From the UHGV virus genome UHGV-0306718: a DNA stretch of 10,231 nucleotides; one strand, 5' to 3'. Position 1 is the stretch's first letter; each line of letters opens with the position of its first letter. The notes beneath the pieces were generated by a model. It worked only from the letters and a program-made list of their open reading frames with translations, was not told the origin of the DNA and did not search any database. A program made the position numbers and the translations under genes. This document shows, in pieces, positions 51 through 8,352 of the stretch. Origin of the DNA: a virus.

Positions 51-1466
51 ATGACTACGTGGCAACAGGATATTAATTCTGGTGGGTTTCTTGCTGGCAT
101 CGGGGCGCAAAATGAGAATGCGCCAAAGGCAAGCGACATTAACGCAACGCTTGGTCTGATCCGCGAAAACAATGAATTGGCTCGATCAGGTGCAAATAAC
201 GTTGCTCTGACAGGTCTTCGTGGTCTGGCTGGAGTTGCTGATATTTACAATCAGGAACAGCAACAGAAAGCGATTAGTGCGTTCAATAAGGTTCACGCTG
301 ATGCATGGGCTTCTGGTGATCCATCGGGACTATTTAAGTTTGCCCAGGAAAATCCAGCGTTTGTTGCACAGGCACAACAGGCGTTTTCCGGTCTTAATGA
401 TCAGCAACGCAACGATATGGGCGATTTAGCCATGAGGGCTAACGTCGCTCTTTCTCAGGGACCGGAAGCCTACAGTAAATTCATTACTGACAACAAGGAC
501 AGGTTAAATCGCGTGGGGGCGAATGCTGACTGGATGATTCAGACAGGTATCCAGAATCCAGAGCAGCTATCACACATGTTGACTACTATGTCTCTCGGTG
601 CGCTTGGACCAGAAAAGGCGTTTGCTGTTCAGGACAAGATGGCTGGTCGTGAAATTGACCGAGGCAAACTTGCAGAGACAATCCGCAGCAATCAGGCTGG
701 TGAAGCACTTCAGGCGAGAGGGCAAAACCTTTCCTATCAGTCAGCAATGACTGGGCACAATATCGCAGCACAACGCTTGGCTCTGGATCAGCAAGAGTTC
801 GGGTTTAAGATGCAGCAAGCGCAGGAAAAGGCTCAGCAGTTGATTAGCGAAGCACCTAAGCTGTCAGTAAACATGGAAAAAGGCATCGAGACGGCTGTAA
901 ACAATGCCACAGCATCATCAAACTCAGCCAATTCCATGAGTGCGCTTGCTCAACAGTTCAGAGCAGAAAAACCAACGACCGGCTTGTTCGGTAACGCACA
1001 GAACATGTTCGCAAAACTTACCGGAAGCGATACGACATTGCGTGATTTGCGCATTCGCCAAAATGCCCTTGTTAACAGTCAGGTTCTTAAATTCCTACCT
1101 CCCGGCCCAGCAACGGATAAAGACGTTGAGATCGTTCGACAGGGTGCGCCAACTGACATGGATAACCCTGAGACGGTCGCAAGATGGCTTGATGCAATGG
1201 CAAACCTTGAGCGACGAAACGCGCAGTTTAATGAGTTTAAAGCTGAGTGGATGAGCGCGAATGGCAACCCTGGACAATCGCGTAATGGCGGTCAGATATT
1301 GGGGTTGGATGTTAAAAAAGGTGAATCATTGGGGAGTGCCGTTAAGCGGTATATGTCAATGAATACTGACGCAGCGCCAGCACAAGATTCGACACCTTCA
1401 GGAGAACCACGGAATCAGGTTGGATCATATACCTCAAAATCAGGCATTCAATTTACGGTGGAATGA
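51..1466 (+). CDS. 20: Ejection / DNA-transfer protein gp20 (P22 gene 20 family)
   Basis: 471-aa ORF, the same length as P22 gp20 as I recall it; Q/A/N-rich composition typical of P22 E-proteins; sits immediately upstream of and overlaps a gp16-like gene; AAGGG-type SD upstream of the ATG at 51. Confidence 0.85.
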
Positions 1467-3304
1467 TGAAAGTAACTGCAAACGGTAAGACATTTACCTT
1501 TCCTGATGGTACGAGCACCGAAGATATTGGCACCGCCATTGATGAGTATTTTGCTGGTCAGGCTGTTCAGCAACAAACAGTTAATCAGGCCAATAATGCA
1601 CCAACACGGGAAGAACCATCATTGATGCAACAAGCTGGCGATTGGCTCACTGGTGGTCAAAGTGCAGGGCAAATTGCGGAACAGGCTGGTCGTGGTCTGG
1701 TAAACATACCATTTGACGTATTGCAGGGCGGCGCAAGTCTGATTAATGCAATCAGTCAGGGGCTTGGTGGCCCCAAGGTTTTGGACGATGTCTATCGTCC
1801 AGTCGATCGACCAACAGACCCTTATGCGCAAGCTGGAGAAACAATTGGCGGGTATTTAGTTCCAGGAGTTGGAACGGCAGGAAGCATGGCTATTGGATCA
1901 CTGGCAGAGGCCGCAAATCAGAAAGGCGATTTCGCACAAAATGCAGCTAAAAATGCCGGAGTTAACCTTGCCGCTCAGGGGGTTCTTTCCGCAGCAGCAA
2001 AGGGAATAGGGCGTGGAATAACGGCTATAAAAGGTGATATTGCGCCAGAAGTGGCGAAGAAAATTGCCACATCAGAATCGATGGGCGTGACACCAATGAC
2101 ATCTGATGTTATCCCGCCGAAAAATGCTTTCACTCGCGGCCTAACTCAGGATGCCGAGGGGGCTTTGCTCGGGACAGGCTCAAAGCGAGCGGAGCAATAT
2201 GCAACGCGTAGTAAGCTGGTAAGTAATTATTTTGACCGTTTTGGTGAGTACAACCCTGATGATGTGGTGAAATCTCTTACCACCACGTTAAGGGGGCGGA
2301 AGGATGCCGCTGGCGCTGTTATCAATGACGTCACCAATAAAATGGGTAATGCCGCAGTTGATACCACAAATACCATGAATGCTCTGAATACAGCGATCGC
2401 AAGACAGGAACGGCTTGGGACGTCTGCCAATCAAAGCCTGCTTACATCCTTGCGTAACCTACGTGAAGAATTAGCAAACCCTGCAACTGATTTGGATGTT
2501 ACGTTTGATCTCTTGCGTCAGCACAGAACAGCATTTAGATCTAATGTTCAGGGAGATGCTATGGTCTTCCCAAACCAGGCAAAAGCAGCTACCAATATGG
2601 TAGAGAATGCAATGTCAAAAGATCTTCGTAACGCAGTTGCAAAAAACCTCGGTGCATCAGACGCAGCAAAATACCTTAAAGCAAATTCCGATTATGCAAA
2701 CGTTTATAATAAGGTGCTTAATAAAAACATTGCTAACAAGCTCAACAAGGCAAGCAGTGAAGCCAGTCCTGAACTTATAAATACCGTTGTATTAAGCAGA
2801 AAACCATCTGACGTGAAACGAATCTGGAGCGCATTGGATAATAAAGGGAAAGATGCTATGCGTGCAGCTTATGTCAGCAAAATAGCGGAAAAGGCCGGTG
2901 ACTCTCCAGCCAAGTTCATCACTGAAGTTAATAAGCTGAAATCTCAGTCAGGCGGTGAAATTTACAACACTATTTTTTCTGGAAAGCACATGAAAGAGCT
3001 TGATTCTCTTCATGAAGTTCTACAGCAAACAGCAAGGTCAGACACCGCAAATGTAGTAACTCAGACGGGGCAATCGCAAGCCAACAGGATAAGGACGATT
3101 GGCGCAACTGCGACTCTTGGCGTATCAATGGGGCTTGAGGCTGGTTTCGGTGCAATGATGCGCTTGTATGAGTCAAAAGCAGCAAGGAATGCTCTCTTAC
3201 GTTTGGCAAACACCAAAGCAGGAACACCAGCCTATGAAAGAGCGATAAATAACGCTGCGAATGCCATCAGACCGCTGTTTGCTACTGAGGCAACACAGCA
3301 GTAA
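1463..3304 (+). CDS. 16: Ejection protein gp16 (P22 gene 16 family)
   Basis: 613-aa ORF starting [16 protein letters not shown]; its start overlaps the gp20 stop (ATGATGA), suggesting translational coupling; position and size match P22 gene 16 (about 609 aa). Confidence 0.85.
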
Positions 3305-3328
3305 CGTATGGGAAATTGGATTCAATCG

Positions 3329-3718
3329 CTAACATTTTCTTTTTACTTTTCCAACAAAAGCTTTGGTTGAATCCATATTTCCATAACCGGAAATGGTTTT
3401 TGACATTAAAACTGTTCCAGTAGGATGTATTACCCATGAGTCGATAACGCGTTGAGTTTCGCCATTCGCGCCGATTCCTATGATGGAGTTTTTAGACAAT
3501 GCTTTGTAAGCCATGCCGCCCGCATCTGTCCCAGAATATGTGATGCTGGCATCTTCACCGTTTGTCTTAATGATGAATGTTCCACTAAAACCATCTTCTT
3601 CCGGATGGAAATTATTTCGTTCTGAATAGCTTATTCCGCGCATATCTCCAACGACCCAGCACTCTGCTGTAGCCCCAAAAGATATGAATAAGAACATAGC
3701 AGTAAGAAATTGCTTCAC
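3329..3718 (-). CDS. Hypothetical secreted (periplasmic) protein, 129 aa, probable accessory (moron) gene
   Basis: GTG start at 3718 with a perfect SD (AAGGAGG, 5-nt spacer); N-terminus MKQFLTAMFLFISFGATA|E looks like a Sec signal peptide with an AxA cleavage site; mature part has Cys near both termini; local GC about 35% versus about 50-55% in neighbouring virion genes. The longer 201-aa ORF in the track is an upstream extension with no RBS. Confidence 0.6.
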   Translation of the reverse strand: MKQFLTAMFLFISFGATAECWVVGDMRGISYSERNNFHPEEDGFSGTFIIKTNGEDASITYSGTDAGGMAYKALSKNSIIGIGANGETQRVIDSWVIHPTGTVLMSKTISGYGNMDSTKAFVGKVKRKC

Positions 3719-3748
3719 GCCAACCTCCTTAGTTTTGCGCAGGATACC

Positions 3749-4114
3749 ATGAAAAAAGTTAACATTGGAAACGTACCAAAGATGCTCGTTCCGCTCTTTG
3801 AGAGCGGTACAATTGTGTTTTGTAGAGACTTTCCAGAATGGCAACGCCTGCATCAAAAACTTGGCGTTGACGTGCATGACTCGGACGCCAACGGAGCGTC
3901 TCATACAATGAGTAGCGAGAATGGTGTTTTGCATGTGATAGGCGTGTTCAATGGCAAACTATCTACTATTGCCCATGAGTGCGCTCACATGGCATTCGAT
4001 ATCTGCTCAAGGGTAGGTGTTGATGTTGAACCAGGAAGAGCCAACGAGACTTACTGCTACTTAATGAGCAGGCTTGTTGAGTTCTGCGAGCGACATATCA
4101 AAAAGCCGGAGTGA
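3749..4114 (+). CDS. Hypothetical protein with HEXXH (zinc-metallopeptidase-like) motif, 121 aa
   Basis: ATG at 3749 preceded by AGGA; contains HECAH followed by a downstream Glu (NETYCY); divergently transcribed from the secreted-protein gene with only 30 bp between the two start codons. Family not recognised. Confidence 0.55.
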   Translation: MKKVNIGNVPKMLVPLFESGTIVFCRDFPEWQRLHQKLGVDVHDSDANGASHTMSSENGVLHVIGVFNGKLSTIAHECAHMAFDICSRVGVDVEPGRANETYCYLMSRLVEFCERHIKKPE

Positions 4115-4127
4115 CCTGGCTTGATTA

Positions 4128-4307
4128 TTACTTTTTGCTGTCTGGAGTTCGCTTATCCAATACCCAGCCATGACCTGGCTTTGTTGTTGGTGGAAGCCTT
4201 TCGTTGTCCTTGACGGTTGCAAAATTGTCTTTCTTACCGCCGCGTGGGCCAACTTCTTGGTATATTCCGCCGTTTTTTCCTGTGTTTTCACCTGGTTTTT
4301 TCGCCAT
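4128..4307 (-). CDS. Small hypothetical protein (59 aa), resembles the YjzC-like small-protein family
   Basis: Internal ATG at 4307 preceded by GAGG with a 6-nt spacer; sequence MAKKPGENTGKNGGIYQEVGPRGG...PPTTKPGHGWVL recalls the PG..G.Y.E.G signature of YjzC-like proteins (from memory, unverified); convergent with the HEXXH gene. Confidence 0.5.
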   Translation of the reverse strand: MAKKPGENTGKNGGIYQEVGPRGGKKDNFATVKDNERLPPTTKPGHGWVLDKRTPDSKK

Positions 4308-4343
4308 GATATACCTCAACATACACCCGTTATTGGGCGATTA

Positions 4344-4372
4344 AATATTGATCTCATTTTATAAGTAGTCAA
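4344..4372 (-). promoter_or_regulatory. Candidate sigma70 promoter for the small YjzC-like gene
   Basis: On the minus strand: TTGACT (-35, plus coords 4367-4372), 17-bp spacer, AATATT (-10, 4344-4349); about 30 nt upstream of the SD. Confidence 0.3.
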
Positions 4373-4390
4373 TATGGCCCAGGTAAATGC

Positions 4391-4421
4391 AAAAATTAAC
4401 CCACCTTCAGGTGGGTTTTTT
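4391..4421. terminator. Bidirectional intrinsic terminator at the 3' end of mnt
   Basis: 8-bp stem AACCCACC / GGTGGGTT with a 4-nt loop; followed by TTTTT on the plus strand and AATTTTT on the minus strand; the mnt stop codon sits in the loop. Confidence 0.6.
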
Positions 4422-4658
4422 GTACAAATCCTTCAGCGTATCAAACACCATCTTCTTAACAAGCTCTGACTGCTCATCAGCGAGTCGTTCTGCATCGTCG
4501 CGATATCCAGTCACAGGCGATGGTTTTGATAGAGCATCTTGGACGATTTGTAACAACTCGGAGTTCATTGATCTCCCATTCGCCTCCGCCCTGAATTTTA
4601 ATTTCTCCCTTACTTCCATAGGCATACGGAAGTTAAAGTGCGGATCATCTCTAGCCAT
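4407..4658 (-). CDS. mnt: Mnt repressor (ribbon-helix-helix; maintenance of lysogeny, represses Pant)
   Basis: 83-codon ORF MARDDPHFNFRMPMEVREKLKFRAEANGRSMNSELLQIVQDALSKPS... is essentially identical to P22 Mnt as recalled. Confidence 0.95.
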   Translation of the reverse strand: MARDDPHFNFRMPMEVREKLKFRAEANGRSMNSELLQIVQDALSKPSPVTGYRDDAERLADEQSELVKKMVFDTLKDLYKKPT

Positions 4659-4748: not shown

Positions 4749-4910
4749 ATGAAAGGAATGAGCAAAATGCCGCAGTTCAATTTGCGGTGGCCTAAAGAAG
4801 TATTGGATTTGGTACGCAAGGTGGCGGAAGAGAATGGTCGGTCTGTTAACTCTGAGATTTATCAGAGAGTAATGGAAAGCTTTAAGAAGGAAGGGCGCAT
4901 TGGCGCGTAA
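4749..4910 (+). CDS. arc: Arc repressor (ribbon-helix-helix)
   Basis: 53-aa protein [53 protein letters not shown], near-identical to P22 Arc; GAGGTGA SD; the longer track ORF from 4686 is an unsupported upstream extension. Confidence 0.95.
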
Positions 4911-4978
4911 AGTTGAAGCCCCAACTGCGGGAACAGTCAGGGCTTCGTTTGTCAGTAAATCCGTGGAGAAAAACCAAC
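4910..4978 (-). ncRNA. sar: sar antisense RNA (small antisense regulator of ant translation)
   Basis: Extended -10 promoter TGcTATACT on the minus strand inside the first ant codons (plus 4985-4993); a transcript starting near 4978 is antisense to the ant SD (GGAG 4965-4968) and contains an imperfect hairpin (4915-4946); predicted length about 69 nt, matching the known 68-69 nt P22 sar. Ends are approximate. Confidence 0.5.
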
Positions 4979-5881
4979 ATGAATAGTATAGCAATTTTAG
5001 AAGCAGTGAACACCTCTTACGTACCATTCAACGGTCAGCAAATTATCACCGCCATGGCTGCCGGAGTTGCATATGTTGCGATGAAGCCAATCGTTGAAAA
5101 CCTTGGAATGAGTTGGGGTACTCAGCAACAAAAACTTATGAAACAACTAGATAAGTTCAACTGTATTCATATGAATATGGTTGCCGCTGATGGTAAGCTT
5201 CGTAAGCTACTCTGCCTTCCTTTGAAGAAGTTAAATGGATGGCTGTTCAGCATCAACCCTGAGAAAGTTCGTGCTGACATCCGCGATAAACTGATTCAGT
5301 ACCAGGAAGAATGCTTTACTGTGCTGCATGACTACTGGACAAAGGGAAAGGCAGAAAATGCACGTAAGAAAACATCTGTTGATGACAGGACTCCGCTTCG
5401 TGATGCTGTAAATATGCTGGTCAGCAAAAAGCATCTAATGTACCCAGAAGCTTATGCAATGATTCATCAGCGTTTCAATGTGGAAAGTATTGAAGAGCTT
5501 GATGCATCTCAGATACCGCAAGCCGTAGAGTACATCCACAGGGTAGTGCTTGAAGGCGAGTTCATCGGCAAACAAGAGAAGAAAACCAACGAGCTTTCTG
5601 CAAAAGAAGCAAACAGCCTTGTATGGTTATGGGATTATGCCAACCGCTCACAGGCATTATTCCGCGAACTGTATCCGGCGCTAAAACAAATTCAATCGAA
5701 CTATTCCGGCAGATGCTACGACTACGGTCATGAGTTCTCGTATGTTATCGGAATGGCGAGAGACGTTTTAATCAATCACACACGAGATGTTGATATTAAT
5801 GAGCCAGACGGACCAACGAATCTTTCCGCATGGATGAGACTTAAGAATAAAGAATTACCTCCTTCAGTACATAATTACTGA
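4979..5881 (+). CDS. ant: Antirepressor Ant
   Basis: 300-aa ORF from the ATG at 4979 ([21 protein letters not shown]...), SD GGAG about 10 nt upstream; matches P22 Ant in size and position after arc; the 22 upstream codons in the track ORF overlap the arc stop and lack an RBS. Confidence 0.9.
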
Positions 5882-5981: not shown

Positions 5982-7973
5982 ATGACAGATATCACCGCAA
6001 ATGTTGTGGTAAGCATGCCTTCGCAACTCTTCACTATGGCGCGTTCTTTTAAAGCCGTAGCTAATGGCAAAATTTATATCGGTAAAATTGACACTGACCC
6101 GGTAAATCCTGATAACCAGATTCAGGTCTATGTTGAGAACGAAGATGGTTCTCACGTTCCTGTTGCACAGCCAATCGTCATCAATGCCGCTGGGTATCCA
6201 GTATATAACGGACAGATTGCCAAATTCGTAACTGTGCAAGGCCATTCTATGGCTGTTTATGATGCATGTGGTGCGCAGCAGTTCTATTTTCCAAATGTGC
6301 TGAAGTATGACCCGGATCAGTTAAGGCAGGAGTTAGCAAGTTCAGGTGATGATCTTGGAGATGCATTAATAGCAGTAAAACAACCATTCACCTTGTCAAT
6401 AAGAAGGACGCAGCATCAAAAAAATGCCGAGCACATTAGTGTTAGTGATTTTGGTGCAAAAGGAGACGGCATAACAGATGATACTGTAGCAATTCAAAAT
6501 GCTATTAATGCAGTACCAGAAGGGGCTATACTTGGATTTTATGGTGGTGAATTTGTTTTTGATAAGGTTGAATTGCTTAAGCCAATAACATTGGTTGGTG
6601 ATGCAACGTTAATTCACAACGGATTTAGAATAAAATCTAGCAGAATACGATCACTTTTATCTGGTGTTCAGAAATGCAAGGATTACTCCGAGTCTTCAAG
6701 AGCATTTTATTGCTATGCAAATGAAGACCAAAGAGATTATGACGATATTCAGATTTTGTTTAATAGATTTGAAGGTTTCTTTTACTCTACGGCATTTGTT
6801 GCAAAAAACTATTATTTGGAGAATGACCCTAATTCAAGAACTGTCAAAAATACAAAAGTAATAGGATGTACATCAGTTGCTCCTGATTCTGTAAATGCCG
6901 GTCATTTTCAACATATAGGCGTTACAAATGCTGAAACATCACATAACTCAACTTATGGCGGACAAAATGCAACATCATACAACTTCATTAACCAGAATGG
7001 ATTTGTAAGGATTATAGGAAATTATGACCATAACAATAGCTATGGTTCATGTGAGCTTGAGAACTCAATGGTGAGTAACTCAGTCATATCATGTAATACG
7101 TTTTCGTCATATTTATGGGTGGATGATACAAGCAATGTTACTATTTCTGGAAATACAGTTTCATCAAGGATCAAAGTAACATCGCAAACTGACGATGTTC
7201 ATAATATAACCATATCAGCAAATACCACAAAACGGATTACTATAGAGCAATTTGGAGAATCTCCGACAGGTCTGGTATATGGTGCATTAATTTCCTGTAA
7301 CACTATTACTGGCGACAGTGATGGAAGTTCAGACATTTTATGTACGTCACTTGTTACAGGTGAAATTTCATCAAATTATTGTCATGGATCAGAAAAAAAT
7401 ATATCAATTGTCCGCCTGGATTCTTCTGATATAACTGTTAGAAACAATAAAGGAAACAAAGGATTACTTACAATAAGTAACGATGGTGGGAGGATAATTG
7501 AATATGGCAATGATTCTATGGTTCTGTCTGGAAGCATAGATAGCAGACATATACATAATTTATTACAACCAGACACATCGTATTTAGATCTACCGGGGAA
7601 ATATCTGCACGGAACTAAATATACTGGCAGTATCCCCCCCGGTTCCACAGGAACTGTATCACTTCAAATACCATCAGGGGCAAGCCTTGTTTTCAGGGGT
7701 GTTTCTATATGGGTTCTAATTAGAGATGTTAGCAATAACAATATATCGTCATTCAGAATTGATGGTTCATATAGAGTTGTTGGTGGAAGTGTTGGTCTTA
7801 GTTTTGCTGATGCTTATTCGAAACTCGGGGTGGATGCAAACTCTATAACAGTGTCAAACAATAACAGCACTTCTGACAATATCAGCATAGCAATTAAAAA
7901 CACAGATTCATCAAAAACCCTTCAGGTTACTGTTATGCCGGAGGTTTCAAGCAGGTTAGGTATTGAGGAATAG
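5982..7973 (+). CDS. 9: Tailspike protein: P22-type head-binding N-domain fused to a divergent pectate-lyase-like beta-helix receptor-binding domain
   Basis: N-terminus [11 protein letters not shown]...[13 protein letters not shown]...[11 protein letters not shown]...NVLKYDPDQ matches the P22 gp9 head-binding domain; downstream sequence is unrelated to P22 gp9 and carries the [22 protein letters not shown] motif typical of pectin-lyase-fold depolymerases; SD GGAG upstream of the ATG. Confidence 0.9.
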
Positions 7974-8049: not shown

Positions 8050-8352
8050 ATGATGAATATAGAAGTTGATATAACACCAATTCTTCACGCACTTTGCGCT
8101 GTTGTCGCACAAGTTCTGGTTGGTCTTTTTACCGGAAACTGGGCTTACGGTGCGATAGCCGGTTGTACGTTCTTCATTGCGCGTGAACACACCCAGGCAG
8201 AATATCGCTGGATTGAAATGTTCGGGCATGGCAAGCGTATGAATATGCCGTGGTGGGGTGGTTTTGATCCACGCGTGTGGGATGTAGGAAGCCTTATGGA
8301 TTTTTCTTTCCCAATTATCGGATGCTTATTGGTATGGATTCTTGCATCGTAG
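8050..8352 (+). CDS. Hypothetical small inner-membrane protein (100 aa, about 3 predicted TM segments)
   Basis: ORF with three hydrophobic stretches (ITPILHALCAVVAQVLVGLF, AYGAIAGCTFFIA, FPIIGCLLVWILAS); occupies the position between tailspike and att/int where P22-like phages carry O-antigen-modifying conversion genes; weak SD. Confidence 0.45.
   Translation: MMNIEVDITPILHALCAVVAQVLVGLFTGNWAYGAIAGCTFFIAREHTQAEYRWIEMFGHGKRMNMPWWGGFDPRVWDVGSLMDFSFPIIGCLLVWILAS

What the first reader, a model, noticed from the sequence alone, without database searches (positions are those of the whole stretch)
3749..4114. Small cytoplasmic protein with a HEXXH zinc-peptidase-like motif next to the immunity region
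The 121-aa protein carries HECAH with a Glu about 22 residues downstream, the minimal arrangement of a gluzincin-type metal site, and has no signal peptide. Small metallopeptidase-like proteins beside repressor and antirepressor modules, such as ImmA-type anti-repressor proteases, can act as regulatory proteases. A single motif in a short protein is weak evidence and it could be coincidental.
Basis: inference. Interest (0 to 1): 0.45.

Follow-up and report, generated by a model that had tools for sequence, protein, structure and literature searches.

The report
Small conserved phage zinc-protease-like gene hkcC
The ORF is hkcC, a gene of phages P22 and HK620 with no known function; its HExxH…E motif is invariant across a large phage family and sits in a confidently predicted zinc-protease-like fold, but the gene is not tied to the neighbouring Mnt/Arc/Ant switch.

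Summary
Window 3749-4114(+) encodes a 121-aa protein with H76-E77-C-A-H80 and E100, and no signal peptide. It is the 99%-identical homologue of HK620 hkcC and the same ORF in P22. PHROG 1365 and the literature both list it as function unknown.

The ImmA-style anti-repressor idea is not supported. HK620 keeps hkcC without mnt/arc/ant. Relatives sit in tail, lysis-terminase and early gene clusters of temperate and virulent phages, always co-directional with lytic transcription.

In one subclade hkcC is linked to a convergent small basic gene, orf59a (YjzC-like). Best reading: a late-expressed accessory mini-metallopeptidase whose substrate is unknown.

The parts
3749..4114 (+). hkcC coding sequence (121 aa plus stop); predicted minimal gluzincin-type metallopeptidase
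   Evidence: 99% identical to HK620 hkcC and the P22 ORF; PHROG 1365 at E 1.7e-39; AlphaFold pLDDT 89, pTM 0.83
3741..3744 (+). AGGA ribosome-binding site, 4 nt upstream of the ATG
   Evidence: read directly from the sequence
3974..3988 (+). codons for H76-E77-C78-A79-H80 (HExxH: two metal ligands and the catalytic base) on predicted helix 71-88
4043..4060 (+). codons for N99-E100-T-Y-C103-Y104. E100 is the presumed third metal ligand at the start of helix 100-116. Y104 (132/136) and C103 (111/136) are one turn further on the same face.
   Evidence: aligned with thermolysin N165-E166 in the phmmer alignment
3893..3895 (+). codon for G49, the only invariant residue outside the metal site, at the start of beta-strand 49-56. 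Presumed substrate-binding edge strand (inference).
   Evidence: aligned with the strand before HExxH in astacin-type peptidases
3719..3748 (.). 30-nt divergent intergenic spacer. Similarity to P22 and HK620 starts at 3716, the start codon of the divergent gene, so no conserved room is left for a promoter of hkcC's own.
   Evidence: no promoter-like site on the + strand upstream
4103..4122 (.). hairpin overlapping the hkcC stop codon; bidirectional terminator shared with convergent orf59a
   Evidence: annotated as bidirectional terminator tORF59A in HK620 and as t mnt in P22-pbi
4128..4307 (-). orf59a (HK620 'HkcD'): 59-aa, pI 9.9, YjzC-like small protein; convergent partner co-inherited with hkcC
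4344..4372 (-). promoter-like site TTGACT-17-AATATT upstream of orf59a, conserved in the Rosenbergiella locus
3329..3718 (-). context, not part of the module: divergent gene for a small secreted protein (PHROG 2651). It occupies the slot of P22 sieA and HK620 hkcB. GTG start with an AAGGAGG ribosome-binding site.

Best explanation
hkcC encodes a catalytically competent, single-domain, cytoplasmic zinc metallopeptidase of the gluzincin type. H76 and H80 on the active-site helix and E100 on the next helix would hold the metal. E77 would be the general base. The G49 strand would bind the substrate. These roles are inferred from conservation and the predicted fold, not measured.

It is a dispensable accessory ('moron') gene. 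It has no promoter of its own and is probably made when antiterminated late-operon transcription reads through from gene 16 toward the tailspike gene (inferred). It is not a component of the Mnt/Arc/Ant circuit.

Its job is most likely to cut one specific cytoplasmic protein or peptide during lytic growth. The substrate is unknown. The leading candidates are a host factor that limits phage growth and the product of orf59a. orf59a is the small basic YjzC-like gene that is co-inherited with hkcC in this subclade and has its own promoter.
For: Shown by tool results:
- Invariance of H76/E77/H80/E100 across 136 diverged representatives of a family with 546 clusters at E<=1e-3.
- H80 to E100 spacing of 20 residues, identical to thermolysin H146 to E166. 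The top six PDB sequence hits are M4 proteases aligned in exactly that register, although not significant individually (E 0.09-0.66).
- AlphaFold pLDDT 89 with the order beta-beta-alpha-beta-beta-alpha(HExxH)-alpha(E).
- Profile hits in PDB are all zinc peptidases aligned on strand plus HExxH helix.
- 26 viral models share the fold at E<=1e-3 and TM up to 0.83, in temperate and virulent phages. Some carry automatic 'SprT-like' or 'Metalloprotease' names.

Accessory, lytic-unit placement:
- After ejection genes here and in P22 and HK620.
- Between tail chaperone and tape measure in Klebsiella, Rosenbergiella and Xenorhabdus prophages.
- Between lysis genes and terminase in ST64T, L, epsilon34, Kluyvera, Citrobacter and Mixta.
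- After replication gene P in a Pasteurellaceae prophage.
- Always on the strand of the lytic operon.

No own promoter: only about 30 nt of conserved upstream DNA in front of three unrelated upstream genes. None was found by the scan. A strong terminator lies 25 nt upstream in Klebsiella.

Link to orf59a: 80/80 orf59a viral loci contain hkcC and 70/80 hkcC loci contain orf59a. The convergent pair recurs in five further genera with both genes diverged (hkcC 46-63%, orf59a 64-80% identity).
Against: - No metal binding or proteolysis has been measured.
- I could not read model coordinates to check ligand geometry.
- No curated family reaches threshold.
- Late expression is inferred from gene order and the absence of a promoter consensus, not from transcript data.
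- The 80-locus co-occurrence counts come from near-identical, non-independent prophages.
- Distant family members, and 10/80 close ones, lack orf59a. It therefore cannot be the family's general substrate.
Confidence: 0.55

Rival explanations
1. ImmA/IrrE-type regulatory protease. HkcC would cleave a repressor of the immunity circuits (Mnt, Arc or C2) or otherwise act as an anti-repressor.
Against: - PF06114 (M78) is not among the families hit by more than one of 125 members.
- IrrE-named viral models match only at E>0.03 and TM about 0.3-0.4.
- Mnt and Arc are ribbon-helix-helix proteins, not the Xre-type partners of ImmA.
- hkcC is kept in HK620, where mnt/arc/ant are remnants, and in 13/80 loci lacking all three.
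- Relatives occur in virulent phages and at sites without any regulator.
Confidence: 0.05
2. SprT/Wss1/ArdC-like protease that works on DNA-bound or DNA-crosslinked proteins, clearing phage DNA before replication or packaging.
For: 32 of 125 family members give sub-threshold hits to Pfam SprT-like (best E 1e-4). Some viral structural neighbours are named SprT-like. Several family members carry long Lys/Pro-rich basic C-terminal tails that could bind nucleic acid. The co-inherited Orf59a is strongly basic (pI 9.9). Many copies sit next to terminase genes.
Against: - The SprT-like hits cover only about 25 profile positions around the HExxH helix.
- The window protein itself has no such hit.
- hhalign of the family profile against E. 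coli SprT (YggI) gives probability 4.8%.
- From my own knowledge, SprT and Wss1 use a third His rather than the Glu-on-next-helix seen here.
- HkcC is slightly acidic (pI 6.4) with no Zn-ribbon or basic tail.
Confidence: 0.12
3. Prophage-borne two-gene defence or addiction module. hkcC and orf59a would form a toxin/immunity or abortive-infection pair expressed from the lysogen, comparable in logic to the e14 Lit protease or to sieA next door.
For: - The module sits in the hypervariable slot that also holds superinfection-exclusion genes (sieA in P22).
- orf59a has its own conserved promoter-like site and a terminator, as morons do.
- Co-occurrence is asymmetric: orf59a is never without hkcC, while hkcC is sometimes alone. 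This is the pattern of a harmful gene with its neutraliser.
- The region is present in 319 of 5426 complete E. coli genomes.
Against: - No PADLOC model matches either protein.
- hkcC has no detectable promoter for lysogenic expression.
- Family members are common in virulent phages, where a prophage defence makes no sense.
- Most of the family lacks orf59a.
Confidence: 0.12
4. Not an enzyme: either a chance HExxH in a small structural or regulatory protein, or a zincin-like fold that has lost catalysis and only binds a partner.
For: A single HExxH is a weak signal, about 0.002 expected per protein of this size. Foldseek finds no solved structure. There is no curated family hit.
Against: The catalytic base E77 is kept in 135/136 sequences, and all three presumed ligands are kept, while the rest of the protein has drifted to about 20% column identity. 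Pseudo-enzymes normally lose exactly these residues.
Confidence: 0.05

Closest known systems
HK620 HkcC and the unnamed or 'hkcC' ORF of Salmonella phage P22 (PHROG 1365)
   Same: The same gene. 99% amino-acid identity, same position after gene 16, same convergent orf59a and shared terminator.
   Different: Nothing of substance. Here the divergent upstream gene is a PHROG 2651 secreted protein instead of sieA (P22) or hkcB (HK620). The literature lists hkcC as unknown function (PMC2629481, PMC4837284). Several P22 records do not annotate it at all.
Thermolysin-type gluzincins (MEROPS M4) and M3 oligopeptidases
   Different: HkcC is 121 aa against more than 300-680 aa and consists of the bare catalytic core. 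Tyr replaces the Asp found four residues after the Glu in thermolysin (own knowledge). E-values are not significant (0.09-0.66). The family profile finds no M4 entry.
Minigluzincins (proabylysin, projannalysin) and other roughly 110-aa stand-alone zincins such as PDB 3e11
ImmA/IrrE/CapP (Peptidase M78) regulatory proteases
   Different: No profile match, no cognate Xre-type repressor partner, and not linked to regulators across contexts.
SprT-like, Wss1 and the ArdC C-terminal domain proteases
   Same: Phage- or plasmid-borne small HExxH domains. Sub-threshold local Pfam hits in a quarter of family members.
   Different: The match is limited to the HExxH helix. hhalign against E. coli SprT is negative. 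The presumed third ligand is Glu. This protein has no DNA-binding module.

Membership tests
HkcC family (PHROG 1365) | Full-length profile match and orthologous position in P22-like genomes | tested here: met
   E 1.7e-39 over residues 1-121. 99% identical to HK620 hkcC at the same locus.
Gluzincin-type zincin metallopeptidases | HExxH on an alpha-helix, conserved in homologues | tested here: met
   Helix 71-88 holds H76, E77 and H80. They are invariant in 136 representatives.
Gluzincin-type zincin metallopeptidases | Third metal ligand is a Glu on the following helix, about 20 or more residues after the second His | tested here: met
   E100 is 135/136 conserved, lies 20 residues after H80 and is the first residue of helix 100-116.
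Gluzincin-type zincin metallopeptidases | N-terminal mixed beta-sheet with backing helix; overall fold superposable on solved zincins | tested here: inconclusive
Gluzincin-type zincin metallopeptidases | Zn binding, ligand geometry and peptide-bond hydrolysis | not testable with these tools
   Model coordinates are not readable, and there is no biochemistry.
ImmA/IrrE (Peptidase M78, PF06114) | Match to the M78 profile or fold | tested here: not met
   No hit for the window protein. PF06114 is not among the families hit by more than one of 125 members. IrrE-named viral models match at E>0.03 and TM 0.3-0.4.
ImmA/IrrE (Peptidase M78, PF06114) | Encoded next to its cognate Xre-type repressor substrate | tested here: not met
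   The neighbours are RHH proteins (Mnt, Arc) on other transcripts. The gene occurs without any regulator in HK620 and many other contexts.
ImmA/IrrE (Peptidase M78, PF06114) | Cleaves the repressor on induction | not testable with these tools
   Needs an experiment.
SprT-like (PF10263) | Profile match at the gathering threshold, covering the domain | tested here: not met
   No hit for the window protein. 32/125 relatives hit below threshold, over about 25 positions only. hhalign against E. coli SprT gives probability 4.8%.
SprT-like (PF10263) | Associated DNA-binding element (Zn ribbon or basic region) | tested here: not met
   121 aa, one domain, pI 6.4. Some distant relatives do have basic tails.
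Thermolysin family (M4) | Significant sequence or profile similarity to M4 catalytic domains | tested here: not met
   E 0.09-0.66 with a single sequence. No M4 hit with either family profile.
PhageMetallopep (PF18894) | Profile match | tested here: not met
   Not among the Pfam hits. hhalign against the Kluyvera PF18894 protein gives probability 1.7%.
Known anti-phage defence proteins (PADLOC-DB 2.0) | Match to any defence-system model | tested here: not met
   No hit for hkcC, orf59a or the flanking small genes.

The most novel reading that the evidence does not exclude
HkcC and Orf59a could form a previously unrecognised phage switch. A small basic YjzC-like protein would be made from its own promoter, possibly in the lysogen. 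A mini-zincin made only by late read-through would remove or process it, or remove the host factor it engages. More broadly, the HkcC family could be a widespread class of phage-encoded counter-defence or host-takeover proteases acting on a defined host target. No zincin of this kind has been described in the literature I could search.
Probability: 0.15. Interest if true: 0.7.

Novelty: new variant of a known kind. Interest (0 to 1): 0.45.

Why it matters
P22 and HK620 are among the best-studied phages. Even so, this conserved ORF has stayed 'unknown' and is missing from several P22 annotations.

Recognising it as the founding member of a large family of bare-core zinc peptidases turns it into a directly testable enzyme. 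The family has at least 546 clusters at 50% identity and occurs in temperate and virulent phages of many Proteobacteria.

Two outcomes would follow if it is active. It would be one of the smallest natural zincins. Its substrate would point to a host or phage process that many phages find worth cutting. The tight pairing with a YjzC-like gene also gives a first functional handle on that uncharacterised family.

Tried and rejected
Family and structure searches that found nothing:
- Pfam, NCBIfam and PADLOC on the protein: nothing at threshold. The only hits were chance lantibiotic matches around 'HEC'.
- PDB sequence search with the close-family profile: nothing.
- Foldseek against PDB: nothing at E<=0.001.
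- AFDB Foldseek: library not available.
- hhalign of the family profile against E. coli SprT and against a neighbouring PF18894 phage metallopeptidase: both negative.
- Pfam on the longer family members to look for fused domains: none found, only low-complexity basic tails.

Searches that failed or were limited:
- Genome-contig scan with the diverse alignment failed because no stretch was conserved enough. I repeated it with the close alignment.

Context check:
- I checked whether YjzC-like genes in Gram-positive phages also sit next to a zincin. They do not in Clostridium phage phiCT9441A. The Brochothrix NF5 match lies on the strand opposite its annotated gene and was not resolved.

Literature searches (hkcC, orf59a, SprT-like with anti-defence, HExxH with phage protease, accessory-gene screens): only statements that hkcC and orf59a are of unknown function. 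The BTP1 transcriptome paper is not informative because none of the passages retrieved mentions this region.

Considered and not run: a linker-fused HkcC-Orf59a AlphaFold job. The tool returns no inter-chain confidence or coordinates, so the result could not be interpreted.

Full report
**What the window is.** The window is the end of the late operon and the immI region of a P22-like (Lederbergvirus) prophage. The genes are:
- gene 20 (51-1466) and gene 16 (1463-3304);
- a divergent small secreted protein (3329-3718, minus strand, PHROG 2651);
- the ORF in question (3749-4114, plus strand);
- orf59a (4128-4307, minus) and mnt (4407-4658, minus);
- arc (4755-4910), ant (4976-5881) and the tailspike gene (5982-7973);
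- a small membrane-protein gene, then an integrase.

Window 3716-4420, which holds hkcC, orf59a and the 3' end of mnt, is 97-98% identical to P22, HK620 and about 50 other phage records. DNA similar to the 1.1-kb query (3300-4420) is found in 319 of 5426 complete E. coli genomes, where PGAP calls the ORF 'hypothetical protein'.

**Checking the observation.** The ORF, its 121-aa product and the motif are as described.
- H76-E77-C-A-H80 lies at 3974-3988 and E100 at 4046-4048.
- E100 is 20 residues after H80, which is also thermolysin's spacing from H146 to E166.
- There is no signal peptide.
- HExxH alone is expected about 0.002 times in a protein of this size. It occurs once in the 2948 aa encoded by this window.

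**Identity.** The protein is the homologue of HK620 hkcC, annotated 'unknown'. The same ORF exists in P22 but is unannotated in several P22 records. PHROG 1365 ('unknown function') matches over the full length. Two genome papers list hkcC and orf59a as genes of unknown function (PMC2629481, PMC4837284). Further literature searches found no functional study.

**Is the motif meaningful?** Yes.
- Close homologues down to 43% identity keep H76, E77, H80 and N99-E100-T101 without exception.
- A profile search of 1.84 billion representatives found 546 clusters at E<=1e-3. Nearly all are stand-alone proteins of 105-140 aa.
- In 136 aligned representatives, H76 is 136/136, E77 135/136, H80 136/136, E100 135/136, G49 134/136, Y104 132/136 and C103 111/136.
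- In a second alignment of 125 sequences the only invariant columns are G49, H76, E77, H80 and E100, at 20% mean column identity.
- Retention of the catalytic base E77 together with the three presumed ligands argues for an active enzyme rather than a decayed fold.
- Against P22 the gene shows 5 synonymous and 1 non-synonymous codon change.

**Fold.** AlphaFold with the 18-sequence alignment gives pLDDT 89 and pTM 0.83. The order of elements is strand 11-13, strand 21-25, helix 28-37, strands 49-56 and 59-66, helix 71-88 (HExxH) and helix 100-116 (starting at E100). This is the zincin layout of sheet plus backing helix, active-site helix and 'glutamate helix'.

Support from solved structures is only modest.
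- Foldseek against PDB finds nothing. AFDB was unavailable.
- In sequence searches of PDB, every weak hit is a zinc peptidase in a consistent register. M4 proteases align on HExxH and NE. Myroilysin, BMP1 and a Lys-specific metalloendopeptidase align on the preceding strand and HExxH.
- Against viral models the fold recurs 26 times at E<=1e-3 (TM up to 0.83), in Pseudomonas, Ralstonia, Erwinia, Achromobacter, Serratia, Salmonella, Escherichia, Eggerthella and crAss-like phages.

**Membership in named families.** None is met.
- M78 (ImmA/IrrE): no profile hit, and only marginal structural similarity to IrrE-named models.
- SprT-like: 32 of 125 relatives give sub-threshold hits confined to about 25 positions around HExxH. 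The window protein has none. hhalign against E. coli SprT is negative.
- M4, PF18894 and PADLOC: negative.

The protein therefore works like a gluzincin on present evidence but belongs to no curated family.

**Context and the immunity-region idea.** hkcC does not follow mnt/arc/ant.
- HK620 has hkcC and orf59a but only remnants of mnt and ant.
- 13 of 80 viral loci have hkcC with none of the three.

Relatives occupy several other positions:
- between tail chaperone and tape measure in Klebsiella, Rosenbergiella and Xenorhabdus siphovirus prophages;
- after replication gene P in a Pasteurellaceae prophage;
- between the lysis cassette and terminase in ST64T (orf-129), L, epsilon34, Kluyvera, Citrobacter, Mixta and Atlantibacter;
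- near terminase or among small early genes in metagenomic phages and Providencia phage Kokobel2.

tblastn also finds relatives in phages with 40-73 kb genomes infecting Pseudomonas, Aeromonas and Klebsiella. Some P22-like phages carry two copies, one at each site. In every case the gene is on the strand of the surrounding lytic operon. Antirepressor-type genes (Ant, Rha, KilA-N, Bro-N) are near in about a third of contexts. I read this as shared use of moron insertion sites rather than a functional tie.

**Expression (inferred).** Similarity to P22 and HK620 begins at 3716, the start codon of the divergent gene. That gene is sieA in P22, hkcB in HK620 and a PHROG 2651 gene here. Only about 30 nt of shared DNA therefore precede hkcC. 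That is too little for a conserved promoter, and none is detected. In Klebsiella a strong terminator lies 25 nt upstream. The simplest reading is that hkcC is translated from antiterminated late transcripts that run from gene 16 toward gene 9. That late transcription crosses immI in P22 is my own recollection of the P22 literature and was not checked here.

**The partner.** orf59a is 59 aa with pI 9.9 and gives a weak YjzC-like hit. It is convergent with hkcC and shares the hairpin at 4103-4122. It has a promoter-like site, TTGACT-17-AATATT, that is conserved in Rosenbergiella.
- All 80 orf59a-containing viral loci contain hkcC, and 70 of 80 hkcC loci contain orf59a.
- The convergent pair recurs in Klebsiella, Rosenbergiella, Xenorhabdus, Proteus and a Pasteurellaceae genome, with both genes diverged.
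- More distant HkcC relatives lack it.
- A YjzC gene in a Clostridium phage has no zincin neighbour.

The asymmetry, with orf59a never alone, suggests that Orf59a depends on HkcC or is neutralised by it. The loci counted are largely near-identical, so this is a lead and not a result.

**Mechanism and verdict.** The best-supported reading is a late-expressed accessory mini-metallopeptidase that cuts a specific cytoplasmic target. The enzyme class is reasonably supported. The timing is inferred. The substrate is unknown. The rivals are an ImmA-like regulator, a SprT-like DNA-associated protease, a prophage defence or addiction pair, and a non-enzyme. Each is weighed in its own section of this report.

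The finding is a real, previously unannotated feature of a classic phage gene. It is of moderate interest and is directly testable.

Noticed in passing
window 9993-10231: The integrase ORF (8996-10069) loses its reading frame after '...TLVTRLSE'. The rest of the integrase, 'MNVEPHVTERMLGHELGGIMSVYNKHDW...ISD*', is encoded on the minus strand at 10050-10208. The inverted piece is bounded by a perfect 23-nt inverted repeat (9993-10015 and 10209-10231), and the window ends exactly at the second arm. This could be a real inversion, a second convergent integrase copy, or a fold-back assembly artefact at a contig end.
   Followed up: partly
window 3329-3718 (minus strand): This small secreted protein (PHROG 2651, signal peptide VKQFLTAMFLFISFGATA|E) occupies the slot of P22 sieA and HK620 hkcB. 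The swap point is exactly at the start codon (3716-3718), so the shared promoter and ribosome-binding region drives three unrelated cassettes. It may be another exclusion function.
   Followed up: partly
phage records (UAB_Phi20, Phi75, SE1, ST160, ST-32); L184 2501-2890: Several P22-like phages carry two HkcC-family genes. One is the hkcC copy next to orf59a. The other is a paralogue (38-40% identical in ST64T orf-129, phage L Orf129 and epsilon34 gene 70) between the lysis genes and terminase.
   Followed up: partly
L174 5001-6014 (Kluyvera sp.): The HkcC-family gene is immediately followed by a 212-aa PF18894 'putative phage metallopeptidase' (E 1.4e-42). These are two unrelated HExxH proteins in tandem upstream of terminase. 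hhalign shows no relationship beyond the motif.
   Followed up: partly
proteins P0063, P0067, P0116, P0133, P0150: A subset of family members has a 50-70-residue C-terminal extension that is charged and ends in a Lys/Pro/Arg-rich basic tail. This suggests nucleic-acid or nucleoid targeting in those members.
   Followed up: no
L183 2486-2653 (Clostridium phage phiCT9441A): A YjzC-family gene sits as a reverse-oriented insert between head morphogenesis and scaffold genes. Small YjzC-like genes therefore behave as antisense morons in late operons of Gram-positive phages too.
   Followed up: partly
window 8050-8352: A 100-aa hydrophobic protein (PHROG 1443, unknown function) lies between the tailspike gene and the integrase. 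In P22-like phages this is the position of O-antigen-modification or other lysogenic-conversion genes.
   Followed up: no
L001 1534-1564 (P22-pbi) = window 3749-3779: The putative sieA promoter annotated in P22 lies inside the first 31 nt of the hkcC coding sequence. Leftward transcription initiation of the divergent gene and rightward read-through into hkcC would therefore compete on the same DNA.
   Followed up: no
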